Source of the DNA: Candidatus Woesearchaeota archaeon
GTDB lineage: Archaea > Nanobdellota > Nanobdellia > Woesearchaeales > SM23-78
Direction of reading: 5' to 3'
Assembly: GCA_019322375.1 (NCBI GenBank)
Contig: JAHWIP010000003.1
Location: forward strand, 6,792 to 70,791
DNA: 64,000 nt
Both the position numbers and the translations under genes were made by a program. The notes beneath the pieces were generated by a model. That model saw only the letters and a list, made by a program, of their open reading frames with translations. It searched no databases and was not told the origin of the DNA. Positions 36,300 to 52,498 of this stretch are shown in pieces (within the stretch, counting starts at the first letter, position 1; each line of letters opens with the position of its first letter).

Positions 36300-36300
36300 A

Positions 36301-38285: not shown

Positions 38286-38352
38286 GTTTGTGACAGAGCA
38301 TTAAAATACACTGAGACACATTAAAATAATAGCAAAGTTTATATACAAAGAT

Positions 38353-39081
38353 TTGCAAGAATTATATGAGATGAAACCCTTGTTTTCAAAGAATAAAAAA
38401 AAGAAAGGCTTGTCAACCCTTGGAACCATTATAGGACTAATACTTTTACTAGCAGTCCTGGCAATCTTTCTTCCGGTTATTCTTCGCGCAGGCAAAACAA
38501 CTGATGAAGTCCCCAAAGACATAATGGACCCTGTCAAGGCATGCCATGGAAAAGAGAGTGGTGAGGAATGTTATCTTGGCGGAATAGCTGGTTTTTGCAG
38601 GGATTTCAGGTGTGTTATAGAGACTTCAGCAAAAAACATGAAAGAATCAATAACTATTTTCAAGACAACTTTCAAGGACAGCATTGAGAATTGCCAGAAA
38701 GATGTAGCCCAGTGCCCTGAGGCAACAAAGGCTCTGGACTTAATGATTGGTTATTTCACAGATGCAGGGCTTGTTGTTCATAGATTAGCCTCAGACAGAG
38801 CAGAGTTCAGGCTATACCAGGAAAAAAACTTTTTAGGTATTGGAGGGCATAAAGCCTCTTTTGTTTTTTACGGCGATACTTGTGTAATAGAGAAGAAAGG
38901 GGATAATGATGTTCCTACATCGGGCAAAAACTTTAAGCTTGGGATCAAAAAAGAAAGCAAAGGTTTTGTAGTATATGACCTTGAAAAAACTGCTGCTGAA
39001 CTAGGCACTTTTATATCTTTCAGGCATCAAACCCAGAATGATGCAACCACCCCGGTCTGTGTTTATTACACTACAGATTAG
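38353..39081 (+). CDS. Pilin-like secreted protein
   Basis: MKPLFSKNKKKKGLSTLGTIIGLILLLAVLAIFL (KKG|LSTL); 6 Cys. Confidence 0.5.
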   Translation: MQELYEMKPLFSKNKKKKGLSTLGTIIGLILLLAVLAIFLPVILRAGKTTDEVPKDIMDPVKACHGKESGEECYLGGIAGFCRDFRCVIETSAKNMKESITIFKTTFKDSIENCQKDVAQCPEATKALDLMIGYFTDAGLVVHRLASDRAEFRLYQEKNFLGIGGHKASFVFYGDTCVIEKKGDNDVPTSGKNFKLGIKKESKGFVVYDLEKTAAELGTFISFRHQTQNDATTPVCVYYTTD

Positions 39082-39154
39082 CAATGCTAAAATAAATTTT
39101 ATTATCATAAAATATTTAATTATTAAAAAAAATTGATTGCAAAGGTGAACTATT

Positions 39155-39808
39155 TTGTTAACAAAATCAAGAAAAGGACTTTCCCTTTTAGGAATGCTTG
39201 GTGGTGTAATCATAGTAGTTGTACTGGTTATTGTTCTAATCAATATTTTCATTAACAGAGGAGCCAAGCCTCTGGAGAACATCACTGGAGAGATAATTAC
39301 CTGCGGAGGACTTGCAGGTGTTATTGGCGGGGGAGAAGGGGTTTGTATAAGCAAAAGCACTCTTTGCGACGGCCCAAAGCTTCCTAATCCTGAGTGCAAG
39401 GCTAGCAATCCTGACAAGCCTTATTGCTGTTTTAAACAAGCAGAGGGTGCTGAAGGCCCTCCTGGTTCTGGCCCGACGGCTTGTGTTAAGGATGTTGACC
39501 CCTGGGAACCTGTAATTGTTGAAGACGATTATGTTTGCGCTTCTAGTAAGGAGGCGTGCGAGCAGACTATGAATTTTGTTAATGTTCTGAATGAATGTGC
39601 TCAATTTAGTGAAGGTTGTGAATGCAAGGATGAAGTAGAAGGAATTGAGCACCCTTGTGAAGGCAATCTTAAATGGGCTCTTTTTGGCCTTGATAAATCT
39701 GAGCCTAAACATGAAGTTGTTATGAAATGCTATCCTGCTGTTAAGGAATGCGAGGATTCAAATGAATGTGAGCGTTGTGTTCCAAACCATTTTGAATGTG
39801 CAGAATAA
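39155..39808 (+). CDS. Pilin-like Cys-rich secreted protein
   Basis: MLTKSRKGLSLLGMLGGVIIVVVLVIVLI; about 20 Cys. Confidence 0.5.
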   Translation: MLTKSRKGLSLLGMLGGVIIVVVLVIVLINIFINRGAKPLENITGEIITCGGLAGVIGGGEGVCISKSTLCDGPKLPNPECKASNPDKPYCCFKQAEGAEGPPGSGPTACVKDVDPWEPVIVEDDYVCASSKEACEQTMNFVNVLNECAQFSEGCECKDEVEGIEHPCEGNLKWALFGLDKSEPKHEVVMKCYPAVKECEDSNECERCVPNHFECAE

Positions 39809-39872
39809 TAACTCTGTTAATTCTTCCCCACCGAAACAAATTTATACTTATTAAGCAAGTTTCTTATGTATT

Positions 39873-41027
39873 ATGGCTTGGATGAATAAAAAAGGCGGTG
39901 AAAGACAGATTGGACTTAGCGAACTTACGCTTTATGTGTTTGTCATTCTGCTTATAGTTGTCTTATTTATTGTTAGCTATAGGTTTATCGGAGCTTTTCT
40001 CAGAGGAGGAGTTGATAAAGACACTGAGTCTAATTTTGTGTCACTGGCAGAGAACCTTGAGTTAATGATTGAGAAAGACGCAGGGTTTGAATACCAGACC
40101 ATGATTTTTTATATGAAAGAAAAGCATTTTGTGTTTGGCTTTACATCCAAGCAGGCTCTTTCCTCTTCTCCAGCAAAGCATTTTATGCCTGAGAAATGCA
40201 ATGAGCACTCATGCCTTTGCCTGTATAAAGAACCTGATGATGTAGCAGATGACAAGCCTGTCAAGTGCATATCTTTTGGGCACAAGGTTATTTTTCATGG
40301 CTATGACTTAAAAAAAGTGTCTGCTGCTCAGCTGGTTTATCCTGACCTAGGAGCAGAGCTGGGTGCGCGTGAGCAAGGAGAATCTTATTATTTATCTGAT
40401 TATCCTGAAACTATTTCTTTTTATATAGAAGGCTTGTTTATTGGCCCTTCACTAGACAATCCTCATGACCTTTACCTGGAAAAAATAGTTGCTAATAACA
40501 GGGTGCATGTTTTTGTGACTCCTGGCCTTAAGCAGGAAATGATAGAGACAAGGATTGAACTGTTATCTCCCTGCCCTTTTGATTCTGATGAAGAATGCAT
40601 GGGCAAGAGAAGAAACTCTGTTCTGGGCAGTAATGATTATTGTTTTTATGATGAGAGCCAGGCTAAGTGCTTGTTAAAAAAAGATGTGGATGCCTGTTCT
40701 TTCTCAGACAGAATTACACAGCCCTGTCTTTGCGGCTCTACATTTATAGACCCAGACACCAGGACAGAAGAAACCTATTGTTATCAAAAATCTGATAAAA
40801 GGATTTTTGTCCTTCCATTTGACTGCGATTCAGAGGAATTAAGAGAAAAAAAATGCCTTGCTTACTGCAGGGCAATCACTGATACAGAGGACTGCGACAC
40901 AAGAGAACAGGATTACTGTGATAAAGACCCTTGCGAGTTTGCTTCTAAAGAAAAGCCGTGCGAAGTGCGCCCATTAGGCAAAAAAACTTATTGTGCTTCT
41001 TACTCAAGGGATTACAGCATGGATTAA
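39873..41027 (+). CDS. Pilin-like Cys-rich secreted protein
   Basis: MAWMNKKGGERQIGLSELTLYVFVILLIVVLFIV; about 25 Cys. Confidence 0.5.
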   Translation: MAWMNKKGGERQIGLSELTLYVFVILLIVVLFIVSYRFIGAFLRGGVDKDTESNFVSLAENLELMIEKDAGFEYQTMIFYMKEKHFVFGFTSKQALSSSPAKHFMPEKCNEHSCLCLYKEPDDVADDKPVKCISFGHKVIFHGYDLKKVSAAQLVYPDLGAELGAREQGESYYLSDYPETISFYIEGLFIGPSLDNPHDLYLEKIVANNRVHVFVTPGLKQEMIETRIELLSPCPFDSDEECMGKRRNSVLGSNDYCFYDESQAKCLLKKDVDACSFSDRITQPCLCGSTFIDPDTRTEETYCYQKSDKRIFVLPFDCDSEELREKKCLAYCRAITDTEDCDTREQDYCDKDPCEFASKEKPCEVRPLGKKTYCASYSRDYSMD

Positions 41028-41113
41028 TAATAGTTGCTTGGATTAATAATAATTATTAGTAATTGTTCTAAAAACCTAAATCTTTTTAAACTCGTTTATC
41101 AACAATTTAAGTT

Positions 41114-41596
41114 ATGAGTTTTTATGATTTTAATAACAAGAAAGCCAGGAGCATGATTGCAACTTCTTTTTATGTATTATTTGGCTTGATGCTGGGAGCC
41201 TTTTTTGTGATAGCTGTTCTTGGAAGAGTTAAGGATGCTGTTGGTGATTCTGCTTATCATAAAAAGTTTTATTCCAGGGACCTGGCCTTGCTTGTTGATG
41301 CCTTGCATGCCAGCAATGGAAAGTTTGTTGTTGATTATGATGTTAATCTTCCAGACAACATGCTCCTGGACTTTGGTCTTGAGCCTGGAGCAGTCATCTT
41401 AACAGACCGCTCTGACACACTCATGGATAACAGGCATAAAACTGCTTTTTTGTTTGGGCATAATGATTATGTAAAAATAATTCCTGTCACAATTGACAAG
41501 AACATGCTTAAATTGTTAGTGGTGGCTGATAACAACACCATTACATTTGAAGAGAAAGGGATGGATGATTTAAGTACAAATGATAAAGAGGAGTGA
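41114..41596 (+). CDS. Pilin-like protein
   Basis: MSFYDFNNKKARSMIATSFYVLFGLMLGAFFVIAVL. Confidence 0.45.
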   Translation: MSFYDFNNKKARSMIATSFYVLFGLMLGAFFVIAVLGRVKDAVGDSAYHKKFYSRDLALLVDALHASNGKFVVDYDVNLPDNMLLDFGLEPGAVILTDRSDTLMDNRHKTAFLFGHNDYVKIIPVTIDKNMLKLLVVADNNTITFEEKGMDDLSTNDKEE

Positions 41597-41629
41597 TTTA
41601 AGTATAAATGATTTAAGCAAAGAATAAGG

Positions 41630-42169
41630 ATGAGAATAATAAAAAAGAGGCTGAGCCTGAATAACAAAAAGGGGTTGGGAACTGAGGAGTGGCTTGAACT
41701 TCTGCCTTACATAGTGTTAACAGTGGTTGTAATGGTGGCTATTTTTGCCCTGATAAACCTTTTTGTTAATATTTCTGTTGATGTTAAGCCTGTTCAAAGG
41801 GAAGTTCTTTTCTACAGGCTGATGTATGCTCCTAACTCAATTATGTATATGGATAATCTTACTGGCAGGGTTCACCCTGGTGTTATTAGCTGGGATAATT
41901 TTACCAACCAGACCCTTGACAAATCTATTGCTTATGATTATGAAAGGCATATATCTGCAAAATTGATATTATATAACCTGGAAAAAGAGCCAATCAAAAC
42001 AGCTTATCTTAATGGGCTGTGGTTTAACCGCTTAGAGCCTTTGGCCAGGAGCAGGATTAAGGGTGCAGGCAGTGCAGAGCTCTACACCAAGAAAATCCCT
42101 GTTGTTTACAGGAGAAATGATGTGAACAGGGCAGGCTATCTTAAAGTTGAGATTATCATTCCAAACTAA
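41630..42169 (+). CDS. Pilin-like protein
   Basis: ..NNKKGLGTEEWLELLPYIVLTVVVMVAIFALI (KKG|LGTEE, Glu at +5 as in bacterial T4 pilins). Confidence 0.5.
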   Translation: MRIIKKRLSLNNKKGLGTEEWLELLPYIVLTVVVMVAIFALINLFVNISVDVKPVQREVLFYRLMYAPNSIMYMDNLTGRVHPGVISWDNFTNQTLDKSIAYDYERHISAKLILYNLEKEPIKTAYLNGLWFNRLEPLARSRIKGAGSAELYTKKIPVVYRRNDVNRAGYLKVEIIIPN

Positions 42170-42184
42170 CAGCGAGTGATTTGA

Positions 42185-42853
42185 ATGAGCAGTTTGATTA
42201 ATTCAAGAAAAGGCATGAAAACCATTGTGACAATATTATCAGTTGTCTTGTTAGTATTCATATTCATAATATTTATTTTTCTTTTCAGGCTTGGCGCCAG
42301 GAACAAGGCAGAAAGCATAGAATCAGATTTTTCCTCTGTAAGAACAGAGTTTTTGCTTAAAACCTTTTTAAGAACACCAGCTGTTATTAGTGATGATTAC
42401 CCTGTTGAAGACTTGTTCCCTGGCATAGGAGAAGGCATTACCAATGCAGACCTGGTATCATGGACATGTAGTAAGGATAAAGACAGGAATTACAAGACCT
42501 TGAAAAACTCAATAAACACTTTTTTTGATGAGGCATATGAAGATGACTGGGAAGCATGGATAATCTATTCTAATCCTAAAGTAAAAAAGAAGGGCTTTGG
42601 GCACAAGAGTTATCTTGAAGGGATTGAGAAAAGCATAAACCGCTTGCTAACAGCAGGACAGCTGGCTTTGCTAGCAGCCAAATCATCAGACCCAGCCAGC
42701 AGGGGATTAATCTTCAAGCTTTTTATAACTCCTTATCGTGAAGCAGGCTTTGGCTCCCAGGTGGTTCCTTGCCCAGACGGAGAACTAGCCCAGATAATGC
42801 TTTACTCCCACACAGCATTTATTGAAATAAAACACCTGAAAGGCTTAACATAA
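42185..42853 (+). CDS. Pilin-like protein
   Basis: MSSLINSRKGMKTIVTILSVVLLVFIFIIFIFLF. Confidence 0.45.
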   Translation: MSSLINSRKGMKTIVTILSVVLLVFIFIIFIFLFRLGARNKAESIESDFSSVRTEFLLKTFLRTPAVISDDYPVEDLFPGIGEGITNADLVSWTCSKDKDRNYKTLKNSINTFFDEAYEDDWEAWIIYSNPKVKKKGFGHKSYLEGIEKSINRLLTAGQLALLAAKSSDPASRGLIFKLFITPYREAGFGSQVVPCPDGELAQIMLYSHTAFIEIKHLKGLT

Positions 42854-42865
42854 GATAAAATAAAA

Positions 42866-45800
42866 ATGGATAAAGTAAAACTGAGATTAAAAAACAGAAA
42901 AGCACAGGTTTACCCGCTTTTTGTAGTGGTCTTTACAATAGTGGCCTTGACAACAGCCCTTATTGGCTTGAGCAATGCAAAAGAGGTTACTGATTTATCT
43001 GGCAGGGAAATGCTTATCGGCACCAAGCAATCAGCTGTTTTTGCATCTCTTCAAGACGCAGATGCTGTTAGTTTATTCATAGAGCAGGCAGCAGAATTTG
43101 CAGGCCAGCAAGCCCTGGATAAAATAAGAAAATCATGCTTTTTTGGAGTTGATGAGGAACAAGAAGTTGATGAGTGGGAGTCTCCATGCGGCAAGTTTGT
43201 TTATCCTCTTTGGAGCACTAATGAAAATCTTTGCCTTCCTGATTGTGAAACAGCTTTTGTCAATGCCTTTAACAAGGATTTTTTAAGCCGAACAAACAAG
43301 TATTATGAGTTCACAAACATAGAGCTGCCTATTTCTTATAACATGAGCCTGGAAATACATGACAATCATTTTTTTGTTCATGGAACCTCTGACACAGAAC
43401 TAAGGATTAATGTGGTTGATATTCAGAGCAGGATTAAGTCTCCCCTGGCAATAGCCCAGACTTATGAGGAAGGCAGGCTTATCTGGCCTGTTGATTACTC
43501 TGACCACACAATCACCTCTTGCTTTGGTGAAAGAGATGTTGTTGGGGGGAGCAAATACCATCCTGCTGTTGATATCCGGGCTCCAAAAGGAACACCAGTG
43601 CTGGCAGCTGCTTTAGGAAAAGTGATTCTTACTGACCCTTGCTGGGGAAGAATTGTTATTAATCATGGCTCTGGCTTAAGCACAGAGTATCTTCACTTGG
43701 AAAAAATTGATGTTAAGGTTAATGATGATGTGGTGCAGGGACAAAGAATAGGAACTTCTGGCAGCAATGGCTGTGACACAAGAGAGTTTGTTCCGCACCT
43801 GCATTTTGGGGTTATATATCAAGGTGTTCAGTCACCCATGCATTATAAAGGGCAGGAAATAGTTTTGAGCAACAACCATATCCAGCCCATGTGCTTGATT
43901 GAAAAAGGGTATGCTGCTAAGCCAGAAAGCAACTGCAACCAGCTTGTGAACACAGACTTAGACAAGATTTGTGAATTGTATAATCTGCCAGAAGAATTTT
44001 TTGAATCATCAGAATCATCAAAGCCATCAGAGCCATCAGAACCAGACCAAGACACTTCTTCTGAAGAAAGTGCTGATGCAGAGAATGCTGGTGCAGAAAG
44101 TGTTAATGCAGAAAGCACTGAGCTGGATTATTCTCTGGCACAGGCTCCTGGCAGCTATGCTTTTAAACCATCTTTTACCTTGAGGGTTAACAAGAAAATA
44201 GAAAACCCTATTGAGCCAGTAACAGAGTGGTTTGAGAACACCTGGAACGAGTGCGAGGATGACCCTTGGAAATGTTTAAGAGAAAAAATGAGTGAGTTTA
44301 ATGAGCAGGACTATGATTACAAGCTCATGTTTGCTGACAGGTGCGAGGAAGGCTATCACTTGTTCTATGACATACTGGAGTTTTTTGAGGACTGCTTTTC
44401 AAACCAGAAGTATGGGTGCTCATGCGAGTTTAATTTATCAGATGCTTTTTCAATAACTGACTTGCGAATAGTTTTTGACACACAAGCAAACACAGCCTCT
44501 CTTTTTTCCAAGCAGGGAGATAAGCCTGGTGATGAATATGAATTAATTGATTCATACCAGTTCTATTATGGAAGCATAACCAAGCCAGCCCCTGCTTCTC
44601 CTTATAGGTATTATGTGTATCAGCTTGATTATGATGATTATGGGGAGCTGGAAAATGCAGAGCTTATGCAAATGAAGTCATTGCTTGATGTATTTGATGT
44701 TGTGCCTTTTTTTGATTACAAAGAACTAAGACTGGCAAAGCCAGGAGAGGCTGAGCAAGGATATTTTGTGAACACAGAAACAATTCAGTGCAAGTACAAG
44801 AAGAACAAGTTCAGGCTGTGTGCAAAGCCAGCACAGGAAAGAGAAGACTTGTTCCCTATAAGGTTTGCTTTTCACTTAAAAGACAAGCCTCCTGAGCCTG
44901 TTAAAAAAGGAGATGTGGAAATTATAGAGGTGGAGGAGAGTTCTGAGTCAGATGTTGACAAGGTAATGCAGGCAGCAGGCTTTCTAGGAACCATATTCCC
45001 TCCTCTAGGCTACTTGTTCACAGCAATTAATATTCTCAGTGTGTTGGAAGACTTTAAACCAAGAAAGTTCGAGGTAATAGTTGATGTTCCTCTTGACAAG
45101 GATGGCAAACCCCTGGATGTTGCTGGCTATGAAGTTTATTGCAGTGATTACCTGACAAACATCCTGCCAGTGGATGTTTTGGATAAATATAATCCAAGTC
45201 ATTTTGTTGTGATGGCTAATGATGAGATGAATAAAAAAGTAAGCCAGCTAGACCAGTATGTTAAGAAGAACCCTTACACAGACTTTCTGAATCTTGAGAG
45301 CTGTGATGTGCCTGTGAGCAAGTTCACAGGAGAAACCATTCTTGTGCCTGGAATCAAAGGGGTTGTTAAGGACGGTAAAATGGTTTTCAACCTTCATAAA
45401 TGCGGGGACTTGGCAATAATTATAGATAAACTAATAAGAAAAGACTACTGTGTATCACTAATACCTGTTGACAAGAATGGCAACAAGATAATGGAGCATG
45501 CTGTGAGCAACTGCGCGCAAACCAATTCACTGCTTGACCTGGTTATTAGTGAGATGATAGAGGAACAGCTAGGAGAATTTATTCCTGCAAGCCTTATACC
45601 TGATAATTTAAAGCCTTATATCAAGCTGCCTGACACAAGCGATATTGTTAATGCAGTAACAGGGGAAGGCAGTTTTGACATGATAGACATTGTTAATCTT
45701 GACAAGCTGGACGCAGACATAAAAAATTATCTTGAGGAATTCGTGGTTGGAACTATTAATGAAGACATAATAGGCACTTCTGTTGTTAATTCTATTGATG

Positions 45801-46639
45801 ACTTAAAGCTCTGGGAAAAACAAACAGTGCTTAACACCCTGTCAAACCAGATAAAAAATGATGATGCAAAAACCTTGTTTGATGCCTTTGTAACAGGAGA
45901 AGGTGTTGCTGAGTCTGCCAAGCGCATGGCTTATGAAAAAGGAGTAGGATATATAGACCAGACAAAAACACCTGAGATACTTAAGGAGATAGCCAAAGGA
46001 GAAGACCCTAAAAGCCTTGCATACCAGGAACTGGTAAAAGCAGCTGAGAAAGAGCTCAGCACTGACGAGAAAAAACAGGCTCTGCTGGAGATAGCCAGGA
46101 GCAGCAGTGGAAGAGAGGTAAAAGATAAGATAATAGAAAAAGCCCTTGAAAAAGGATGCGGCGAGTCATATGGAATAAGTGCAGAGCAGGCAATCAACTG
46201 CCTTGACAATGAAGAGGTAGAAAATATTTATCACAAAGTTCTGACAGACTACAGCACACCAGACAAGGTAAAACAGTTTTTGCTTGACAAGGCAATTGAC
46301 AAGTTTGATGAAAAAACACCAGACGTGCTAAAAGAGATTGTTCTGAAAAGAGACTTTAAAGGAGCAGCAAAGGACATGCTTGAGAAAGAGCTTGACAAGC
46401 TTCCAGACGCTGTTAAGAAAGAGTTTATTACTGATATACTTGAAGGCAGGCTTCCAGATGTTGAGTACTTGCAGCAGGAACTAGTGAAAATGATACCAGC
46501 AGTAAACAATGAATATGTGAATGCCCTGCTAAAAGACGGCAATGTTAAAAACCTGATAGAATCAACCCTTAAATCAGAGATAGAAAAACAACTAGGCTCA
46601 TTCTTCTCAGATGAATGCGTGGCAATTAATAAGGATTGA
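42866..46639 (+). CDS. Giant pilin-like secreted M23 (LytM-type) metallopeptidase
   Basis: 1257 aa; N-term MDKVKLRLKNRKAQVYPLFVVVFTIVALTTALIGL; M23 motifs YHPAVDIRAPKGTPV (HxxxD) and VPHLHFGV (HxH) at about residues 230-320; acidic Ser-rich linker; long K/E-rich helical C-terminus. Confidence 0.8.
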   Translation: MDKVKLRLKNRKAQVYPLFVVVFTIVALTTALIGLSNAKEVTDLSGREMLIGTKQSAVFASLQDADAVSLFIEQAAEFAGQQALDKIRKSCFFGVDEEQEVDEWESPCGKFVYPLWSTNENLCLPDCETAFVNAFNKDFLSRTNKYYEFTNIELPISYNMSLEIHDNHFFVHGTSDTELRINVVDIQSRIKSPLAIAQTYEEGRLIWPVDYSDHTITSCFGERDVVGGSKYHPAVDIRAPKGTPVLAAALGKVILTDPCWGRIVINHGSGLSTEYLHLEKIDVKVNDDVVQGQRIGTSGSNGCDTREFVPHLHFGVIYQGVQSPMHYKGQEIVLSNNHIQPMCLIEKGYAAKPESNCNQLVNTDLDKICELYNLPEEFFESSESSKPSEPSEPDQDTSSEESADAENAGAESVNAESTELDYSLAQAPGSYAFKPSFTLRVNKKIENPIEPVTEWFENTWNECEDDPWKCLREKMSEFNEQDYDYKLMFADRCEEGYHLFYDILEFFEDCFSNQKYGCSCEFNLSDAFSITDLRIVFDTQANTASLFSKQGDKPGDEYELIDSYQFYYGSITKPAPASPYRYYVYQLDYDDYGELENAELMQMKSLLDVFDVVPFFDYKELRLAKPGEAEQGYFVNTETIQCKYKKNKFRLCAKPAQEREDLFPIRFAFHLKDKPPEPVKKGDVEIIEVEESSESDVDKVMQAAGFLGTIFPPLGYLFTAINILSVLEDFKPRKFEVIVDVPLDKDGKPLDVAGYEVYCSDYLTNILPVDVLDKYNPSHFVVMANDEMNKKVSQLDQYVKKNPYTDFLNLESCDVPVSKFTGETILVPGIKGVVKDGKMVFNLHKCGDLAIIIDKLIRKDYCVSLIPVDKNGNKIMEHAVSNCAQTNSLLDLVISEMIEEQLGEFIPASLIPDNLKPYIKLPDTSDIVNAVTGEGSFDMIDIVNLDKLDADIKNYLEEFVVGTINEDIIGTSVVNSIDDLKLWEKQTVLNTLSNQIKNDDAKTLFDAFVTGEGVAESAKRMAYEKGVGYIDQTKTPEILKEIAKGEDPKSLAYQELVKAAEKELSTDEKKQALLEIARSSSGREVKDKIIEKALEKGCGESYGISAEQAINCLDNEEVENIYHKVLTDYSTPDKVKQFLLDKAIDKFDEKTPDVLKEIVLKRDFKGAAKDMLEKELDKLPDAVKKEFITDILEGRLPDVEYLQQELVKMIPAVNNEYVNALLKDGNVKNLIESTLKSEIEKQLGSFFSDECVAINKD

Positions 46640-46755
46640 TAAAGCTAATTCTTGCAACAAAAAGCCCATCCTGTGAATTATCCGGCTCTACTATGGAAAA
46701 GTTTTTAAAAAACCCCTCAGTTGTTCTTTTGAAAGAGTTATTAGGGTGGTATTTA

Positions 46756-48078
46756 ATGATTAACATGCCTTTAGAACAGATTAAGAGCAGGATTTCTGAA
46801 AAAACAGGCTTGTCAGATGAGGAGCTGGATGACAAGATTAAGGCTAAGCTTAAGCAGTTGTCAGGGCTTATTTCTGAGCAAGGAGCTGCTCATATAATTG
46901 CTAATGAGCTTGGTGTGAAGCTGTTTGAGATTGGTGAAAAGCTCCAGATAAAAAATGTGTTGACTGGCATGCGCAATGTTGATGTTGTTGGCAAGATACT
47001 GCAGAAATACGAGCTTAGAGAGTTTCAGACAGAAAAGCATTCTGGAAAGGTTTCTAACATGCTCATAGGTGATGAGACAGGTGTTATTCGTGTTGTTATG
47101 TGGCACAAGCAGGCAGAGAATATTAATAGTGTTAAAGAAGGAGATGTGGTCAAGATAAGAGGTGGCTATGTAAGGGATAACCAGGGCAGAAAAGAAATTC
47201 ATCTGAGCGAGCTCTCAAAATTCATTATTAATCCTCCTGGTGTTGAAGTAGAAGCAAAGCCTTATGAGCGCCCTGTTGCTGTTAGAAAGAGCATTGCTGA
47301 TATAAAAGAAGATGATGCTAGTGTTGAAATCTTAGCCACTATTGTGCAGGTGTTTGATATAAACTTTTTTGAGGTGTGCCCGCAGTGCAGCAAGAGGATA
47401 AGGCTTGGGGACCAAGGCTTTTTATGCCCGACCCACAGTATTGTGGAGCCGGATTATAATTATGTATTAAACCTTTACCTTGATGATGGAAGTGATAATA
47501 TAAGAGCTGTTTTCTGGAGGCAGCAGGCAGAGCAACTATTAGATATGGACAAATCCAAGGTAATGGTTTTTAAAGATGACCCTGCCAAGTTTGAGCCAAT
47601 AAAAACAGAGCTCCTGGGAAATATTATTTTGGTGAGTGGAAGAGCTAATAAGAATCAGAACTTTGACAGGATTGAGCTGGTTGCTAATAAGATTGACAAA
47701 AGCCCTGACCCTGATGAAGAGATAAAGAAGTTAAAACAAGAAGCAGACAAAGCAGTTGCGCAGGATGAAGGTGGGGATGAAGAGCAACAGAAATCGAAGA
47801 TTTCTGAGGGTTCCTACGGAACCGAAGAGGAAATAAAGCAGGAAGTAGCTGGTGGGGATGAAGAGGAAGAGATTAAGCAAGAGGAAGTAAAGGCAGAGGA
47901 AATTAAGGAAGAAGAACCTGTTGAAGAGGAAGTAAAAGAAGAAAAAATAGAAGAAGAGCCTATTAAAAAGAAAACAAAAGAAAAAGAAGATTCATTGCTC
48001 GCTCGCCAAGGCTCGCGAGAAAGCCAGGATGACTTAGAAAACCTTGACCTGGATAAAGAGTTAGAGGATATTGAGTGA
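46756..48078 (+). CDS. rpa: Replication protein A (RPA) with OB folds, Zn-ribbon and acidic repetitive tail
   Basis: LISEQGAAHIIANELGV.., NVDVVGKIL..GDETGVIRVVMWHK (OB fold), CPQCSKR..CPTHS Zn ribbon; start set at MINMPLEQ (ORF-track start 46636 overlaps upstream gene). Confidence 0.7.
   Translation: MINMPLEQIKSRISEKTGLSDEELDDKIKAKLKQLSGLISEQGAAHIIANELGVKLFEIGEKLQIKNVLTGMRNVDVVGKILQKYELREFQTEKHSGKVSNMLIGDETGVIRVVMWHKQAENINSVKEGDVVKIRGGYVRDNQGRKEIHLSELSKFIINPPGVEVEAKPYERPVAVRKSIADIKEDDASVEILATIVQVFDINFFEVCPQCSKRIRLGDQGFLCPTHSIVEPDYNYVLNLYLDDGSDNIRAVFWRQQAEQLLDMDKSKVMVFKDDPAKFEPIKTELLGNIILVSGRANKNQNFDRIELVANKIDKSPDPDEEIKKLKQEADKAVAQDEGGDEEQQKSKISEGSYGTEEEIKQEVAGGDEEEEIKQEEVKAEEIKEEEPVEEEVKEEKIEEEPIKKKTKEKEDSLLARQGSRESQDDLENLDLDKELEDIE
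47995..48023 (+). repeat. GC-rich palindromic element copy A (TTGCTCGCTCGCCAAGGCTCGCGAGAAAG), in-frame in RPA tail
   Basis: Matches 12297-12323 (minus) over 26 nt and 61421-61447 (minus) at both arms. Confidence 0.8.
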
Positions 48079-48091: not shown

Positions 48092-50200
48092 TTATCTTAC
48101 AACCCTGTCAAGACCAGCTTTTATAAAGGGCTCTTTTAATTTGTTTAATGCTTTTAATTCAATCTGTCTTATTCTTTCCCTGGTAACTTTGAATTCTATA
48201 CCAACTTCGTCCAAGGTATGGAAATTATACTTACCAATTCCAAAGCGCATGTAAAGAATTTTAATTTTTCTTTTACGGTCAGGATCCTTTTTAAAAGTGT
48301 CATGGATAACTTTTCTGACCTGATAACCTACTAATGATTGTGCAGCAGCATGTTCAGTATCAGCTTTTGGATCCTCAACAAGCTCACCTATTTCAACCTC
48401 TACTTCTTCTCCTATTGTTGTTGATAGTGAGATTGGTTTTTCAGCCCATTTTTTATACTTCTCAACTCTTTCCTCAGCAACATTCATTTCTTTAGCAACT
48501 TCTTCTGTTGTTGGCTCTCTGCCTAACCTGCCAAATAATTTCCTGGCAATTCCCAAGTACTTGTTTATTTTTTCCACTGAATGCACAGGAGTCCTGATAG
48601 TCCTTGCCTGGTCTGCTATAGCCCTTGTTATTGACTGTTTAATCCACCAAGTAGCATATGTTGAAAATTTATACCCTCTTCTGTATTCCCAGCTGTCTAT
48701 TGCTCTTAGAGCTCCCATGTTTCCCTCCTGAATCAGGTCAGTAAATTCCATACCCCTGTGCTGGTATTTTTTTGCTATACTCACAACCAGTTTTGTATTT
48801 GAACTTGCAAGCTCATTTTTGTTAGATATAAGCTCATCATGAAGCTTTTCTATTTCAGGGCTAACAGGGTCAAGATGAGGAAATATTGATTTGTAAGTTT
48901 CATAAGTTTTTTTCCAGTATTTTTTTTTGAATTTAAGTTTGCTAAGAAGCTTTTTCAGTGCAAAATCTCCTTTTTCTTTGGCATTATGAAAGTTCTCTAT
49001 AAATTCTATTTTTTCCCGAGCAGTCTTCTCATAACCTTTCCAAAGTCGTACTATTTCATCCGGGTGATTTATTTTAATAGCCTTTTCTATATCTTTTACA
49101 ACATAATCAACCAGGCATTCTGGCTTCTTATTGTCGCCTTGCAGGGAGCGCTCTTCAGACAATCCATTGTACAAGAAATTCCTGCTCTCAATTGTTTTGA
49201 ACTCATTAAACAGTTCTGTTAAGTATTTTGTTACAAACAAGTATTTTCCTAGAAAAGATTTTAGGGCTTTCTCCCTTCTTTTCTCAGCCTTTTCAAACTT
49301 TTTTTTGAAGACGTTCACATCTTCACAACAAATAATATCTTCAAGGTCTTTTCCCTTGTTTTCAAGGGTTTCATCCAAGCTTTCACCATGTTTTTTATTC
49401 AAGGCTTCCTGGGCTTCCAGGGCTTCATTAATATCCTTTCTTATTTTATTTAAGATATATTTTTTCTCAATAATATGCTTGAATATTTCTTCTCTTTTCT
49501 GCTCTATTTTTTTTCCAAAAGCATATTCCTGCTCTCTTGTTAGCAAGGCGTGCTTGCCCATGGAACTTAAAATAAAACTTGTTTCACTGCCAATATATGT
49601 CTTTCTCAAGTCTACTTTATCCTCCTCAAGGTCAGAGTACTCTTTTATCAAGAACTTATAATTATCATTAAAAATCTTATTTTTGTTTTCCAGAGCAGTT
49701 CTGTGCATGTCAAGAAGCAAGTTATAATAGAACTTTCTAACATCTGCCCTGTCATATTTTTTTCCATAGTCTAACTTAACAGGGTCGACATACCTGCTTA
49801 GTATAATGTCATGTTTTTTCATGTATGGGTCTCCGAATTCTTTTGGAGTCTTGGTTTCAATCTCTCTTTTTTTTTGCATCAGGTATGCCATAAATCCCCT
49901 TAACGAGATATAACTGTCTCTGTTTATATAGTCCAGGCAGAAAAAAGGATTTTTCTTAGCAAGCTTGATAAGAGCGCTGTTTTCAATATGAAATACTTTA
50001 GCAAGGTCAGCTGTTCTGAGCCTTTGGGAGTATCCAACTTCTTGTTTTAGAACAGAACCTTTTTGTATCAGGTCAAGAAAGAATTTTGAATCCATCTCTA
50101 TGTTTTCCCAGACAGAGGCTCCGAATTTTTCTTTGATTTGAGCAGGGCGCAGGTATATACCTTTGCTCTCTTCTAGAAAAGCATGGGCTGCTTCTTGCAT
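48092..50200 (-). CDS. Bacterial-type primary sigma-70 family factor homologue (regions 1.2, 2, 3, 4 present)
   Basis: [17 protein letters not shown] (region 1.2); [76 protein letters not shown] (regions 2.1-2.4, near-identical to RpoD consensus); ..[38 protein letters not shown] (region 4 HTH). Confidence 0.8.
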
Positions 50201-50266: not shown

Positions 50267-52498
50267 TTAAACAATTTGGTATTCTTGCCTTACCTTCTTG
50301 TTTTTTTCAATGATAGGGATGAGCTGCTCTACAGCGCTTTTATGAAAAGCCTTTAAGTAGGTGTCTGTTGATGTCATTTTTAAGAAAGGAAAATCAGGGT
50401 CTGTGCTCATTCTGCTAAGCTGTTTGGGCTGAATCCTCATGCCAGTTGCTTCATATATATAATTTGAAGCTTGATGCACTCCAATTGTTTCTTTCTTGTC
50501 TTTTTTTATTAGTTCTATTTTTTCATCAAAGAACTTGGTAATAAAGATTTCTTCAAAACCGTTTTTTACAAGATAAACAGGCATGGTATTGCCTAGTTTT
50601 TCTATGTAGCTTATTTTCTTTTCAGGGTTATTGAACTCGTATCTTCTGAGATTCTTGATTAGTTTGGTTTCTATATGCTGGAACCGGGTTACACTTGTCC
50701 TTGCAAAGTTCTCTCTTATTATCTCAACCAGAAGTTTGTGCCCCCTAATTTTCTGAAGAATTTCAATTGCTTCAGCTCCCTTGTAAGTTTCGCTTGGTCT
50801 TTGATTAAAGAGACCTGCTTCTGCAAGCCTTCTGAAAACCAAAAGATTTCTTCCAGTGATTTCTGAAAGTTCTGACCCAGGGTACAGCCTTAAAGGATAA
50901 ATCTCTAGCATGTCTGGCCTGGTTTCAAGCCTTAAATCACCAATGCCTTCAAAAATCTGGGCAAGAGTCCTGCTGTTTTTAGATATAAGATTGTCATCTT
51001 CTTCAAAATACATTTCATCCAGCATGTCTATGAAACGCTTCATACCAAACTCTTTGAACTGCTCTGCTCTGTGCTTTGCAATAGCATACCCACAGTCCCT
51101 GCGAAATTCTGCTTTGAGGTGAGCCAAAAGATTTCTATCATCCTCAATTCTTTTTTCCTTATTTATGTAAATAACAGCACCATCTTCCTCTGTTTCCATA
51201 TATTTAGCAAAAGGGCCGGAAACTGATGGTTCTGCCAGCTCAATTTTAGTTTTTTTGTCTAATCTTTTTTCAACCCAGTCTGTTGCTTCTTTAAGAAAAT
51301 TTCTTAGCTTTGCTTCTTCTTTTTTTTCCTGCTCTCTCTTTATGTTTGTATAGATTCCGCGAGCAATATTTTTTATATGACTTTTTAGTTCTAAAAGCTC
51401 CTCAGTCCCTTTTTGTATGCGCTGCTTGTCAAATCCAAGATCTGGCTTTAATGATTCTACTTCTATAAACCCATATGTGCGTGCTGCAAAACCCAGAGCC
51501 ATTTCTTCCAGCTTGACAATTCCTCCTTCGCCCAGGGTTCTTCCAACCACAAGATGAATTCCACGCACATCCTTTTCTATTGTTTTATGCGGAAGATAAT
51601 ATATATGCCCTCTAATAGGACCGCATTTTTCTAGGGCATCCTTGATTTCATAAACAATTGCTTCTTTTGGAATAGGGGTTTCTATCTCTATATCATTCAT
51701 TTTTACTCTAAAAGCAGGGCTGAGCTGGAGTGCAAACTTTTGTTTAATCAAATCAGCAAGCTTGTCTGTTTCAATTGTGATTTTTCCTTTTTTAGAACCC
51801 AAAGGCTTCATAATGATTTCTGTGCCATGTTTTTTTTGGTCAGTTATTCTTTCTTCACTATAACTAACCTTTCCCCATAAGCCCTGATTAATTATTTTTT
51901 CTAAAGAACCATACTCTTCCTCAACATCCTCTATAAGCAGACTGGTGTTTAACTCAGGTATGGTGTGAGGGGATTCTCTTTTATCAAGAACTCTTTTGAC
52001 AATCCGCTCAATATATTTATCTTTTTGCTTCTCATTAAGATTCATCTCTTCAAACTTAGGGCTGGTTAAGATGGAGTGCTGAATGGTTTTTCTTACAAAC
52101 ACCTCTTTGGTATGATATTTTTTTCCTTTTCCTTTTTTTACTGTGCTCATTTGATAGCCAAAACAAAGGTATCTTATGAACTCCTTGCCTACTCCTGCAT
52201 CACCTATTTTTAGTCTTCCAGTGCGGGTTCTGGGGTTAAGCTTCTTAATATTAGTGCCATAAGTATTGAAGTGCTTAAGGTCTTCAAGATTCATGCCTTC
52301 CCCATTATCTCTTATGAGAAGACTTTTATTTTTATCATCAATTATTATTTCCACAAGAGGAGCATCTGCATCCCAGGCATTATCAATGCCCTGTATTATT
52401 GCTTCATAAGGGCTTAGAAATAGGGATTTGCCAAGATTCTCATGAAACTCTTTTGAGATTCCTCTCCTTACTTTAACAGTTTTCTTTGTCATCAACAC
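50267..52498 (-). CDS. GHKL (Bergerat-fold) ATPase, MORC/TopoVIB/MutL-like N-terminal domain, large C-terminal region of unknown function
   Basis: YEAIIQGIDNAWDADA (N box), LIRDNGEGM (G1), RTRTGRLKIGDAGVGKEF (G2 GxxGxG followed by K); 743 aa; 66 bp upstream of sigma gene on same strand. Confidence 0.6.
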   Translation of the reverse strand: MLMTKKTVKVRRGISKEFHENLGKSLFLSPYEAIIQGIDNAWDADAPLVEIIIDDKNKSLLIRDNGEGMNLEDLKHFNTYGTNIKKLNPRTRTGRLKIGDAGVGKEFIRYLCFGYQMSTVKKGKGKKYHTKEVFVRKTIQHSILTSPKFEEMNLNEKQKDKYIERIVKRVLDKRESPHTIPELNTSLLIEDVEEEYGSLEKIINQGLWGKVSYSEERITDQKKHGTEIIMKPLGSKKGKITIETDKLADLIKQKFALQLSPAFRVKMNDIEIETPIPKEAIVYEIKDALEKCGPIRGHIYYLPHKTIEKDVRGIHLVVGRTLGEGGIVKLEEMALGFAARTYGFIEVESLKPDLGFDKQRIQKGTEELLELKSHIKNIARGIYTNIKREQEKKEEAKLRNFLKEATDWVEKRLDKKTKIELAEPSVSGPFAKYMETEEDGAVIYINKEKRIEDDRNLLAHLKAEFRRDCGYAIAKHRAEQFKEFGMKRFIDMLDEMYFEEDDNLISKNSRTLAQIFEGIGDLRLETRPDMLEIYPLRLYPGSELSEITGRNLLVFRRLAEAGLFNQRPSETYKGAEAIEILQKIRGHKLLVEIIRENFARTSVTRFQHIETKLIKNLRRYEFNNPEKKISYIEKLGNTMPVYLVKNGFEEIFITKFFDEKIELIKKDKKETIGVHQASNYIYEATGMRIQPKQLSRMSTDPDFPFLKMTSTDTYLKAFHKSAVEQLIPIIEKNKKVRQEYQIV

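What the first reader, a model, noticed from the sequence alone, without database searches (positions are those of the whole stretch)
42866..46639. 1257-aa M23 endopeptidase with pilin-like N-terminus and about 900-aa helical K/E-rich C-terminal arm
HxxxD (YHPAVD) and HxH (PHLHF) M23 motifs occupy residues about 230-320. The rest of the protein comprises a Ser/acidic linker and then a very long lysine/glutamate-rich, probably coiled or helical region with repeated KxxLxExxKK-like periodicity. This could be a stalk presenting the peptidase at a distance, or a pilus-tip enzyme. The gene ends the cluster and abuts RPA.
Basis: partly seen in the sequence, partly recalled or inferred. Interest (0 to 1): 0.75.

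Follow-up and report, generated by a model that had tools for sequence, protein, structure and literature searches.

The report
Pilin-like bacterial-wall-cutting enzyme of Woesearchaeota
A wall-less DPANN archaeon encodes a 1257-residue surface protein that carries an intact bacterial-cell-wall-cutting (M23) enzyme on a conserved scaffold, as the last gene of a conserved 14-gene operon of pilin-like proteins, which looks like a dedicated apparatus for opening bacterial cell walls.

Summary
The ORF (42866..46639, +, 1257 aa) and its M23 domain are real. Pfam PF01551 matches at E 1.8e-21, and H232/D236/H277/H311/H313 are invariant in homologues. It is not a frameshift fusion, because full-length homologues occur in at least 10 independent Woesearchaeota/Nanoarchaeia assemblies. 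The "900-aa K/E-rich helical arm" is wrong. After the acidic linker come an alpha/beta module, an FN3-like beta-sandwich, and only about 300 aa of short helices containing an internal ~115-aa duplication.

The new points are these. The protein belongs to a DPANN-restricted scaffold family. In this family the hydrolase is an exchangeable cassette (M23, SLT, Amidase_2, glucosaminidase-like, pairs of these, or none), always placed between the N-module and the central module. The gene ends a syntenic 14-gene operon (32755..46639). Thirteen of its products start with [KR][KR][GA] followed by a hydrophobic helix, which resembles a class III signal. The operon also encodes an AmpDh2-like amidase, and in one relative that amidase is fused into the scaffold. 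A type-IV-filament platform-like gene lies at 26..1891.

The best reading is a filament- or membrane-tethered device that degrades bacterial murein. Prepilin processing, filament incorporation and the target are inferred, not shown.

The parts
42866..46639 (+). g14: 1257-aa modular surface protein (NCBI MBW2990165.1, annotated 'M23 family metallopeptidase'), the finding itself
   Evidence: ORF; exact match P0001; collinear homologues at 39-57% identity
42866..42904 (+). aa 1-13: basic leader ending in K-A. Putative class III (prepilin-type) cleavage site between A13 and Q14
   Evidence: N-[KR]-K-[AG]-Q conserved in 18 diverse family members; cleavage itself is inferred
42905..42973 (+). aa 14-36: the only strong hydrophobic helix (membrane anchor or putative filament-core helix)
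   Evidence: Kyte-Doolittle score above 1.6 only here; AF2 helix 11-37; the most conserved segment of the protein (0.73 against 0.63 overall)
42974..43480 (+). aa 37-205: family-specific N-module (two long helices, a Cys-containing loop, a small sheet)
   Evidence: AF2 H53-91, H127-150, E158-182; conserved C108, W116, C123, P125; no PDB sequence relative
43481..43900 (+). aa 206-345: M23 zinc endopeptidase cassette (H232, D236, H277, H311, H313)
   Evidence: Pfam E 1.8e-21; closest to Pgp3, ShyA and MepM; pLDDT around 90; catalytic residues invariant
44006..44149 (+). aa 381-428: Ser/acidic disordered linker. This is the site where relatives carry a second hydrolase cassette (SLT or Amidase_2)
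   Evidence: Alignment A1; domain maps; pLDDT below 50
44150..44905 (+). aa 429-680: central alpha/beta plus beta-sandwich module. It is the most widely conserved non-catalytic module of the superfamily
   Evidence: invariant Y431, F437, W455, W460, C510, C518, C520, C642, C652
44906..45055 (+). aa 681-730: acidic stretch followed by a Gly/Pro-containing hydrophobic segment (invariant P712). Role unexplained
   Evidence: low pLDDT; conservation 0.43
45056..45535 (+). aa 731-890: FN3-like beta-sandwich module with five invariant Cys
45746..46636 (+). aa 961-1257: K/E-rich all-helical domain of short helices with an internal ~115-aa duplication
32755..33042 (+). g01: 95-aa protein, MDKKA|QGLSMNVIII... 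Pilin-sized, first gene of the operon
   Evidence: orthologues in L007, L010, L011, L017
33045..33335 (+). g02: 96-aa protein, ...NNKKG|VQLTLSTVV... Pilin-sized
33319..35157 (+). g03: ~612-aa Cys-rich protein, ...NKKRA|ELTITQ... The ORF list starts it at TTG 33235; orthologues support the ATG at 33319
35322..36299 (+). g04: 325-aa protein, ...NKKAG|LSTLQT... Paralogue of g05
36301..37197 (+). g05: 298-aa protein, MNKKA|IVFDK...
37281..37442 (+). g06: 53-aa protein...NKKA|QETMS... followed by a TM helix. A 43-55-aa counterpart occupies the same position in L001, L003, L004 and L017 (no BLAST hit)
37452..38285 (+). g07: 277-aa membrane-anchored N-acetylmuramoyl-L-alanine amidase (Amidase_2, AmpDh2/AmpD-like; the His, His and Asp at the AmpD-type zinc-ligand positions are present). 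The only operon product without the [KR][GA] motif
   Evidence: Pfam E 4.3e-25; PDB AmpDh2 E 8e-12; 48% identical to the amidase insert of P0005
38353..39081 (+). g08: 242-aa protein, ...KKKKG|LSTLGT...
39155..39808 (+). g09: 217-aa Cys-rich protein, ...SRKG|LSLLGM...
39873..41027 (+). g10: 384-aa Cys-rich protein, ...MNKKG|GERQIGLSEL...
41114..41596 (+). g11: 160-aa protein, ...NNKKA|RSMIAT...
41630..42169 (+). g12: 179-aa protein, ...NNKKG|LGTEEW... The best conserved small operon protein (43-67% identity)
42185..42853 (+). g13: 222-aa protein, ...NSRKG|MKTIVT...
26..1891 (+). 621-aa, ~9-TM protein: type-IV-filament platform-like. A possible assembly partner, 31 kb upstream
   Evidence: Homologues P0062 and P0107 lie directly downstream of a T2SSE ATPase; the most distant hit carries PF00482 T2SSF; no direct Pfam hit

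Best explanation
g14 is an extracellular, N-terminally tethered murein hydrolase of a Woesearchaeota archaeon. It is built as a carrier plus an exchangeable enzyme cassette. A basic leader and a conserved hydrophobic helix (class III/pilin-like) hold it in the membrane or in a type-IV-filament-like assembly. Next to that helix sits an intact M23 zinc endopeptidase of the Pgp3/ShyA/MepM type. Such enzymes cut peptide cross-links of Gram-negative-type peptidoglycan. Distal to it lies a disulfide-rich scaffold (central module, FN3-like sandwich, helical repeat domain) that most likely binds or spaces the target.

It works together with the other products of a conserved 14-gene operon: two ~95-aa pilin-sized proteins, ten larger proteins with the same N-terminal signature, and a membrane-anchored AmpDh2-like amidase. 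Because the organism has no murein of its own, the substrate is the wall of a bacterium. The apparatus locally opens the sacculus of a bacterial host or prey (or digests wall material) at the contact site. The enzyme set differs between lineages.

Shown: the ORF, an M23 domain with a complete active site, the modular family, the cassette exchange, the operon and its synteny, the N-terminal motif, and a platform-like gene nearby. Inferred: cleavage by a prepilin peptidase, incorporation into a filament or tip complex, disulfides, enzymatic specificity, and the bacterial target.
For: M23 domain and catalytic residues.

Scaffold family with the cassette always between the N-module and the central module: M23; SLT; Amidase_2; glucosaminidase-like; M23+SLT; M23+Amidase_2; M23+glucosaminidase-like; none.

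Rosetta-stone link. The separate amidase g07 is 48% identical to the amidase inserted in the linker of P0005. In that locus and in L001, position 7 instead holds a weak glucosaminidase-like match below Pfam's cutoff.

The operon is conserved in order in L001, L003, L004, L007, L010 and L011, and in content in the distant L017; the shorter loci L009 and L013-L015 hold its last genes. Wherever the downstream flank was recovered it is followed by RPA, usually with CARDB and YdjM, and by RadA where the locus extends that far.

[KR][KR][GA] plus a hydrophobic helix occurs in 13 of 14 operon products and in their orthologues. K-[AG]-Q is nearly invariant in the scaffold family. The helix is the most conserved segment of g14.

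A platform-like gene lies at 26..1891, and its homologues follow a T2SSE ATPase.

21 Cys are invariant and 4 more are nearly so, which argues for an extracellular location.

The genome context is archaeal: RNase P RNA, RadA, RPA, tRNA-intron endonuclease.

Literature. PG hydrolases are prominent in Nanoarchaeota, and large SLT proteins of Woese-/Pacearchaeota have been proposed to attack bacterial walls (PMC12352652, PMC8204110, PMC9723730). Archaeal class III signal peptides on large non-pilin proteins are known (bioRxiv 10.64898/2026.04.22.720090). Modular pilins and large accessory-domain minor pilins are known in bacteria and Saccharibacteria (PMC8179133, PMC11623550).
Against: No curated pilin or class III model matched g14 or its neighbours. 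Only sub-threshold Flp1_like hits appeared, at E 0.02-0.07.

Several operon proteins have 2-10 polar residues between the [GA] and the hydrophobic core, which is atypical for class III signals.

The AF2 N-module is not a classical lollipop pilin. The helix at 11-37 is separated from two further helices and a small sheet.

No prepilin peptidase and no ATPase were found inside the window.

The same N-terminal motif also occurs on a few proteins outside the operon, so it could be a lineage-typical signal anchor.

The operon itself contains no ATPase or platform gene.

Some family members carry no hydrolase (P0028, P0031), so catalysis is not the scaffold's only role.

No expression, localisation or activity data exist.
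Confidence: 0.5

Rival explanations
1. The proteins form a plain membrane-anchored ecto-enzyme complex. The N-termini are uncleaved signal anchors, there is no filament, and the operon products sit on the cell surface. They digest environmental or neighbouring peptidoglycan mainly to scavenge amino sugars and amino acids for a metabolically poor cell.
For: No pilin model matched. Polar spacers follow the [GA] in several products. The amidase g07 has a plain anchor. The motif also occurs on proteins outside the operon. The operon has no ATPase or platform gene.
Against: The G/A at -1 and the K-[AG]-Q signature are strictly conserved across orthologues and across a 23-65% identity range. The anchor helix is more conserved than the catalytic domain. 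The operon opens with two pilin-sized products. A platform-like gene with pilin-like neighbours lies in the same window.
Confidence: 0.3
2. The M23 domain is a regulatory LytM factor, like EnvC, NlpD, DipM or ActS. It does not cut but activates the co-encoded amidase.
For: The operon co-encodes an amidase, and in P0005 the amidase is fused to the M23 scaffold. NCBIfam lists DipM, ActS, EnvC and NlpD among weaker hits.
Against: All zinc-binding and catalytic residues are invariant, whereas activators have degenerate sites. The best matches are active enzymes: Pgp3, ShyA, MepM. The amidase is Amidase_2 (AmpDh2-like). From established knowledge rather than a test here, LytM activators act on Amidase_3 enzymes. 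M23 also occurs in operons whose position-7 gene has only a weak glucosaminidase-like match (L001).
Confidence: 0.05
3. The cluster is a provirus or mobile-element module, with virion or transfer proteins carrying entry hydrolases like phi29 gp13, tape-measure proteins or PrgK.
For: Pairs such as M23+SLT on one long protein are typical of phage tail and conjugation penetration devices (general knowledge). A phage Gp16 appears among the PDB M23 hits.
Against: There were no PHROG hits for nine operon proteins (g03-g05, g08-g13) or for the scaffold. tblastn found no match in 50,697 phage records. Foldseek against BFVD gave nothing at E 0.001 or better. No relative was found in IMG/VR contigs. The chromosomal position next to RPA, with RadA further downstream where the locus extends that far, is identical in every locus whose downstream flank was recovered, with divergence down to about 25-29% identity. 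GC content matches the flanks.
Confidence: 0.03
4. The long ORF is an assembly or frameshift artefact that fuses an M23 gene to an unrelated downstream gene.
For: None, beyond the unusual length and the low-complexity linker.
Against: Collinear full-length homologues occur in at least 10 independent assemblies from several sources. Both halves are conserved together, and the linker is a regular cassette site.
Confidence: 0.01

Closest known systems
Modular type IV pilins and large accessory-domain minor pilins (Streptococcus sanguinis PilB/PilC, ETEC CofB; Saccharibacteria PilX1/PilX2)
   Same: A short leader ends in a small residue and is followed by a hydrophobic helix, with a bulky functional module grafted behind it. 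The protein is the largest product of a locus of pilin-like genes. A role at the contact with another cell is proposed (PMC8179133, PMC11623550).
   Different: The known examples are bacterial, have the G|F..E5 signature and a recognisable pilin fold, and their modules are mostly binding domains. Here the organism is an archaeon, no pilin model matches, the N-module fold is unusual, and the grafted modules are murein hydrolases followed by an 830-aa scaffold.
Archaeal class III signal peptide proteins that are not pilins (Sulfolobales bindosome sugar-binding proteins; 'functionalised' type IV filaments)
   Same: Large extracellular proteins carry a pilin-type N-terminus and are encoded away from the ATPase and platform genes (bioRxiv 10.64898/2026.04.22.720090).
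   Different: Those are substrate-binding proteins coupled to ABC transporters. Here the passengers are wall-degrading enzymes, and they sit in a 14-gene operon of similar N-termini with no transporter.
Large extracellular murein lytic-transglycosylase proteins of Woese-/Pacearchaeota (fam00969, Castelle et al. 2021; Vigneron et al. 2022)
   Same: The lineage is the same, the proteins are large and extracellular, and they carry a murein-specific hydrolase. The proposed role is attack on bacterial walls. Relatives of g14 do carry SLT (P0006, P0008-P0010, P0020, P0038).
   Different: g14 itself has M23 and no SLT. Those papers, as far as I searched them, do not describe the pilin-like N-terminus, the fixed cassette site, the scaffold modules or the operon. 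Whether g14 falls inside fam00969 was not checked.
M23 DD-endopeptidases Pgp3 (Campylobacter/Helicobacter), ShyA (Vibrio), MepM (E. coli)
   Same: These are the best sequence matches of the catalytic module. All zinc and catalytic residues align.
   Different: Those enzymes remodel the producer's own sacculus. g14's producer has no sacculus, and only ~110 residues are homologous.
Multi-hydrolase penetration proteins of phages and conjugation systems (phi29 gp13, tape-measure proteins with M23/SLT, PrgK of pCF10)
   Same: Two different murein hydrolases are tethered to a machine for local rather than global wall opening. This is a functional analogy recalled from the literature.
   Different: There is no homology outside the catalytic domains, no viral or plasmid context, and the locus is chromosomal and vertically inherited.
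Halobacterial secreted M23 hydrolase 'Woldo' (M23 + PG_binding_1; PLoS Biol 2025)
   Same: An archaeal M23 enzyme directed at bacterial peptidoglycan (PMC12352652).
   Different: Woldo is a small secreted bacteriocin-like protein with classical PG-binding domains and a patchy distribution. g14 is tethered, lacks known PG-binding domains, and is part of a conserved syntenic operon.

Membership tests
Peptidase M23 (Pfam PF01551; LytM/lysostaphin-type zinc endopeptidases) | Profile match above the curated threshold | tested here: met
   76.5 bits against a cutoff of 28.7, E 1.8e-21, aa 231-321; 36 PDB relatives, best Pgp3 at E 9e-18
Peptidase M23 (Pfam PF01551; LytM/lysostaphin-type zinc endopeptidases) | HxxxD and HxH zinc ligands plus the catalytic His | tested here: met
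   H232, D236, H277, H311 and H313 are invariant in A1 (10 sequences). In A4 (17 sequences) all are invariant except H313, which is kept in at least 90%. They align with yHsgtD, yyHl and pHlHfg of 6JMX
Peptidase M23 (Pfam PF01551; LytM/lysostaphin-type zinc endopeptidases) | Hydrolysis of peptidoglycan peptide bridges | not testable with these tools
   Needs recombinant enzyme and muropeptide analysis
Archaeal type IV pilin-like / class III signal peptide proteins | Short basic leader ending in G or A at position -1 | tested here: met
   ...NRKA|Q in g14; N-[KR]-K-[AG]-Q across 18 relatives; the same motif in 13 of 14 operon products and their orthologues
Archaeal type IV pilin-like / class III signal peptide proteins | A hydrophobic helix of ~20 residues directly after the cleavage site | tested here: met
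   aa 14-36; the most conserved segment. In several neighbours a polar spacer of 2-10 residues intervenes
Archaeal type IV pilin-like / class III signal peptide proteins | Match to curated pilin N-terminal or class III signal models | tested here: not met
   No such Pfam or NCBIfam hit for g14 or its neighbours, even at E up to 1-10; only Flp1_like at E 0.02-0.07
Archaeal type IV pilin-like / class III signal peptide proteins | Pilin fold (a long N-terminal helix packed on a beta-sheet head) | tested here: inconclusive
   The AF2 model has helix 11-37, then a hairpin, H53-91, H127-150 and three strands. It was not compared by fold search because M23 would dominate. The profile found no PDB relative
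Archaeal type IV pilin-like / class III signal peptide proteins | Processing by a prepilin peptidase (PibD/FlaK/EppA) | not testable with these tools
   No peptidase A24 gene among the window ORFs scanned; the rest of the genome was not available
Archaeal type IV pilin-like / class III signal peptide proteins | An assembly ATPase and platform protein in the genome | tested here: inconclusive
   A platform-like 9-TM protein lies at 26..1891. Its homologues follow a T2SSE ATPase and a distant hit carries T2SSF. The ATPase of this genome lies outside the window, and the protein itself has no direct Pfam hit
DPANN large extracellular lytic-transglycosylase proteins (fam00969, Castelle et al. 2021) | SLT (GH23) domain | tested here: not met
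   g14 has no SLT. Scaffold relatives P0006, P0008-P0010, P0020 and P0038 have it
DPANN large extracellular lytic-transglycosylase proteins (fam00969, Castelle et al. 2021) | Large extracellular protein restricted to Woese-/Pacearchaeota | tested here: met
   All named relatives are Woesearchaeota, Nanoarchaeia or 'archaeon' MAGs, apart from one MAG labelled Methanosarcinales, a label I did not check. One TM helix plus 25 conserved Cys
LytM-type amidase activators (EnvC, NlpD, DipM, ActS) | Degenerate, non-catalytic M23 active site | tested here: not met
   The active site is complete and invariant
Virion- or conjugation-associated multi-domain murein hydrolases | Viral or plasmid genomic context, or homology of the non-catalytic parts | tested here: not met
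   PHROGs none, phage tblastn none, BFVD none, IMG/VR none; conserved chromosomal synteny
Coiled-coil stalk proteins | Long uninterrupted helices | tested here: not met
   The longest predicted helix is 29 residues, and the helical part is limited to aa ~960-1250

The most novel reading that the evidence does not exclude
The operon encodes an archaeal type-IV-filament-derived 'wall-breaching' apparatus. It would be a pilus or pseudopilus whose tip or minor-subunit complex carries exchangeable murein hydrolases. Woesearchaeota would use it to open the sacculus of bacterial hosts. The cassette set (M23, SLT, amidase, glucosaminidase) would track host wall chemistry. This would be the first defined molecular machine for DPANN-bacterium interaction and the first enzyme-functionalised archaeal type IV filament.
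Probability: 0.3. Interest if true: 0.85.

Novelty: new variant of a known kind. Interest (0 to 1): 0.62.

Why it matters
Whether Woesearchaeota and related DPANN archaea live on bacteria, and how, is an open question. So far it rests on the mere presence of murein hydrolase domains.

This locus turns that hint into a concrete, testable unit. It is a deeply conserved, syntenic 14-gene operon with a defined set of surface proteins. It contains a carrier protein whose enzyme cassette is exchanged between lineages, and it shows a plausible link to type-IV-filament assembly.

The locus offers candidate markers for host prediction (cassette type against co-occurring bacterial wall types). It also offers targets for antibodies and cryo-ET in enrichments, and small soluble modules (M23, amidase) for biochemistry. 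If the pilin-like processing holds, it extends the 'modular pilin' and 'functionalised filament' concept to enzymes and to Archaea.

Tried and rejected
Pfam, NCBIfam and PHROGs scans of the operon proteins gave nothing beyond M23 and Amidase_2.

A profile of the N-module found no PDB relative.

The second word-indexed protein search, run with alignment A2, was swamped by generic M23 proteins and added only P0044 and P0045.

The search for related loci with A2 failed for lack of conserved stretches; A1 worked.

Attempts to read the contig upstream of the window failed. The 198-aa protein gave only a 1.6-kb Logan contig, and P0056 is not on record. The ATPase is therefore inferred from homologous loci only.

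No tRNA genes were found.

The idea that aa ~700-727 is a second TM helix was considered and set aside. Its hydrophobicity is below threshold, and conserved Cys follow it, which argues that the C-terminal half is outside the cell.

The amidase-activator, provirus and frameshift readings were considered and rejected (see the rival explanations).

Full report
**1. The observation**

The window holds a single ATG-initiated ORF at 42866..46639 (+) encoding 1257 aa. It is identical to NCBI protein MBW2990165.1, 'M23 family metallopeptidase [Candidatus Woesearchaeota archaeon]', from a 71,427-nt contig. Pfam places Peptidase_M23 at aa 231-321 (76.5 bits against a cutoff of 28.7; E 1.8e-21).

YHPAVD supplies H232 and D236, and PHLHF supplies H311 and H313. 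Together with H277 they are invariant in ten full-length homologues, and four of the five are invariant (H313 in at least 90%) in a 17-sequence set that reaches 22% identity. They align residue for residue with the active enzyme Pgp3 (PDB 6JMX). NCBIfam ranks Pgp3, ShyA and MepM-type DD-endopeptidases among the best matches. AlphaFold gives the domain a pLDDT of about 90.

The frameshift-fusion worry is excluded. Collinear proteins of 1254-1489 aa occur on independent contigs from NCBI, JGI, ENA and Logan.

**2.

K+E enrichment is confined to about aa 1000-1250. The AlphaFold model of aa 420-1257 (19-sequence alignment, mean pLDDT 73) shows the following:
- an alpha/beta plus beta-sandwich 'central' module at aa ~449-680;
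- a poorly predicted acidic stretch followed by a Gly/Pro-containing hydrophobic segment at aa ~681-730;
- a beta-sandwich at aa ~734-889;
- a helical domain at aa ~960-1250, built of 16 short helices of at most 29 residues.

The helical part contains one internal ~115-aa duplication (local alignment z = 5.1; 0 of 300 shuffles reach it). There is no 900-aa coiled arm.

**3. A scaffold family with an exchangeable enzyme cassette**

I ran an exhaustive HMMER search of 1.84 billion cluster representatives with aa 420-1257. It found only 28 proteins, 18 of them below 1e-30. Wherever a source names these relatives, they are Woesearchaeota, Nanoarchaeia or 'archaeon' MAGs; the representative library itself carries no names. 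A scan of one genome per GTDB species found the family in nine loci, all but one labelled Woesearchaeota, Nanoarchaeia/Nanoarchaeota or 'archaeon'; one carries a Methanosarcinales label that I did not check.

Domain mapping shows one constant order: leader and helix, then the N-module, then the cassette(s), then the central module, then the beta-sandwich, then the helical domain. The cassette varies:
- M23 alone: the window protein, P0002-P0004, P0007, P0022, P0024, P0025, P0036;
- SLT alone: P0020, P0038;
- Amidase_2 alone: P0026;
- glucosaminidase-like: P0042;
- M23+SLT: P0006, P0008-P0010, P0044;
- M23+Amidase_2: P0005;
- M23+glucosaminidase-like: P0039;
- none: P0028, P0031.

Shorter, more distant members keep the N-module and the central module but end in other beta-rich regions (P0038-P0043).

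Twenty-one cysteines are invariant and four more are nearly so. There is only one strong hydrophobic helix. The bulk of the protein is therefore most likely extracellular and disulfide-bonded; this is an inference.

**4. The operon**

The finding is the last gene of a 14-gene, same-strand, tightly spaced cluster at 32755..46639. It is bounded upstream by an archaeal RNase P RNA gene on the other strand (32269..32573). The products, in order, are:
- two ~95-aa proteins (g01, g02);
- proteins of ~612, 325 and 298 aa;
- a 53-aa protein;
- a 277-aa Amidase_2 protein (g07; Pfam E 4.3e-25), which is AmpDh2/AmpD-like and has the His, His and Asp at the AmpD-type zinc-ligand positions;
- proteins of 242, 217, 384, 160, 179 and 222 aa;
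- g14.

None of the others matches Pfam, NCBIfam or PHROGs.

Thirteen of the fourteen begin with a basic stretch ending in [KR][KR][GA], followed by a hydrophobic helix. The G/A position is kept in the orthologues from other genomes. In the scaffold family the signature N-[KR]-K-[AG]-Q is nearly invariant over 18 sequences of 23-65% identity. The following helix is the best conserved part of g14 (0.73, against 0.70 for M23 and 0.63 overall). That is unusual for a mere lipid anchor.

Gene order and content are conserved in L001, L003, L004, L007, L010 and L011, and the last genes of the operon are present in the shorter loci L009 and L013-L015. In the distant L017 the terminal protein is a 779-aa SLT carrier, and nearly all of the ~16 upstream products start with K-[GA]-Q. 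Wherever the downstream flank was recovered, the cluster is followed by RPA, usually with CARDB and YdjM, and by RadA where the locus extends that far. The locus is therefore an old, vertically inherited chromosomal feature. Its surface proteins have diverged much faster than the neighbouring RPA (25-57% against 66-79% identity).

**5. Functional coupling of the hydrolases**

The separate amidase g07 is 48% identical to the amidase inserted into the linker of P0005. In that genome, position 7 of the operon instead encodes a protein with the same type of anchor and a weak, sub-threshold glucosaminidase-like match (PF01832, E 3.6e-4), and L001 has the same arrangement at E 0.021. L004 has the separate amidase plus an M23+SLT carrier.

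Every fully recovered version of the operon examined thus carries at least two candidate murein-cleaving activities; in L001 the second rests on a Pfam match below the curated cutoff. The same activity can be either a free-standing operon product or a passenger of the carrier. This is a Rosetta-stone argument that they act together.

**6. Link to a type IV filament machine**

The first gene of the window (26..1891; 621 aa; about nine TM segments with two large loops) has no Pfam hit. It is widespread in Woesearchaeota, with 81 hits. Its most distant hit carries T2SSF. In two homologous loci it lies directly downstream of a T2SSE secretion ATPase. In the window it is followed by three tandem ~140-aa ORFs with hydrophobic N-termini, and by further [KR][GA]-helix proteins up to 9744.

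A filament-assembly platform is therefore plausibly encoded 31 kb upstream of the operon. The ATPase of this genome would lie just outside the window and could not be retrieved. No prepilin peptidase is present in the window.

**7. How it most likely works**

The organism is an archaeon. The window holds RNase P_arch, RadA, RPA, NAC, TrmB and a tRNA-intron endonuclease. I saw no sign of murein synthesis genes in the window.

Amidase_2 and SLT are specific for MurNAc-containing murein (established knowledge). The PLoS Biology 2025 survey likewise concluded that most archaeal PG hydrolases do not act on pseudomurein (PMC12352652). The substrate is therefore a bacterial wall.

I propose that the operon builds a surface apparatus, most likely a type-IV-filament-like pseudopilus or tip complex. 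In it g14 is held by its N-terminal helix. The M23 endopeptidase and, in relatives, a second hydrolase would sit next to the anchor. The disulfide-rich scaffold would project outward as a binding or spacing element. Together with the amidase it would locally open the sacculus of a bacterial host or prey, or digest wall material for uptake.

This matches the logic of modular pilins and of the large accessory-domain minor pilins that mediate host binding in Saccharibacteria (PMC8179133, PMC11623550). It also matches archaeal non-pilin proteins with class III signals (bioRxiv 10.64898/2026.04.22.720090).

Processing, filament incorporation, specificity and target are all inferred. I give the whole statement 0.5. 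Within that, the narrower claim of an active extracellular murein endopeptidase on a conserved carrier within a dedicated operon is about 0.85, and the pilus part is about 0.45.

**8. Rivals**

- Uncleaved signal anchors forming a membrane-bound scavenging complex (0.3). No pilin model matches, several products have polar spacers after the [GA], the N-module fold is not a classical pilin, and the motif also occurs on a few proteins elsewhere.
- A LytM-type amidase activator (0.05). This is contradicted by the intact active site.
- A provirus or mobile element (0.03). This is contradicted and by the conserved synteny.
- An assembly artefact (0.01). This is refuted.

**9. Comparison with the known, and novelty**

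The following are already published or annotated:
- M23 domains and murein hydrolases in Nanoarchaeota/Woesearchaeota (PMC12352652);
- large SLT proteins in the same lineages (PMC8204110, PMC9723730);
- the M23 domain of this protein, which NCBI already annotates.

I did not find the following described in the searched literature:
- the carrier architecture with a fixed cassette site;
- the class III-like signature shared by a conserved 14-gene operon;
- the amidase fusion link;
- the proximity of a filament platform gene.

I therefore rate this a new variant of a known kind, not a categorically new system. It is of above-average interest because it makes the 'Woesearchaeota attack bacteria' hypothesis experimentally addressable.

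Noticed in passing
window 48092..50200 (-) and 50267..52498 (-): A 702-aa sigma-70-like protein (regions 1.2, 2, 3 and 4) and a 743-aa HATPase_c_3 protein form a two-gene minus-strand insertion between RPA and CARDB. It is absent at this position from the related loci whose gene content there was listed (L001-L004, L017). GC is 0.35-0.36 against 0.40 in the flanks. In PADLOC the sigma-like protein matches MzaA (E 9.7e-52) and the ATPase matches weakly to type II REase models, so this may be part of a defence island. Sigma-70 genes in Woesearchaeota have been reported before (PMC8204110).
   Followed up: partly
window 26..1891 (+), 3019..4327 (+), 4441..9744 (+): A type-IV-filament platform-like 9-TM gene, whose homologues follow a T2SSE ATPase. 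It is followed by three tandem 136-141-aa paralogue-like ORFs with hydrophobic N-termini, and by several proteins with a [KR][GA]-hydrophobic N-terminus (198, 215, 170 and 538 aa) plus a 481-aa protein with a plain hydrophobic N-terminus. This is a second pilin-like cluster.
   Followed up: partly
window 32269..32573 (-): An archaeal RNase P RNA (RF00373; 121 bits, E 2e-33) lies immediately upstream of the operon. A TTTAAATA box at 32689..32696 and a GAGGTGA at 32743..32749 precede the first operon gene.
   Followed up: partly
window 44963..45046 (g14 aa ~700-727): A hydrophobic Gly/Pro-containing segment (AAGFLGTIFPPLGYLFTAINILSVL) directly follows an acidic stretch. P712 is invariant and pLDDT is low. 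It falls below the TM threshold, and its role is unexplained (a membrane-interacting loop or a hinge?).
   Followed up: partly
window 54265..57738 (+): A 1157-aa protein with no Pfam or PADLOC match lies in a variable region between YdjM and RadA. The same region holds a SpoIIM-like membrane protein and an 829-aa Peptidase_C25-like protein with an ...NRA|MIGLVL N-terminus.
   Followed up: no
window 32755..39808 (g01, g02, g03, g08, g09): Several operon products share a short Cys-rich motif just after the anchor helix (C..GG.C....C-like), which suggests a common small disulfide-rich membrane-proximal domain.
   Followed up: no
window 46636..48078 (+): The RPA ORF as listed starts at a TTG that overlaps the g14 stop, and it is ~90 aa longer than its orthologues (379-405 aa) because of an acidic E/K-rich C-terminal tail. 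The true start is probably an internal ATG, so 'abuts' overstates the coupling.
   Followed up: partly
L017 9358..9822 (-): In the distant locus a Y1_Tnp (IS200-like) transposase gene is inserted between the pilin-like operon and the terminal SLT carrier gene.
   Followed up: no
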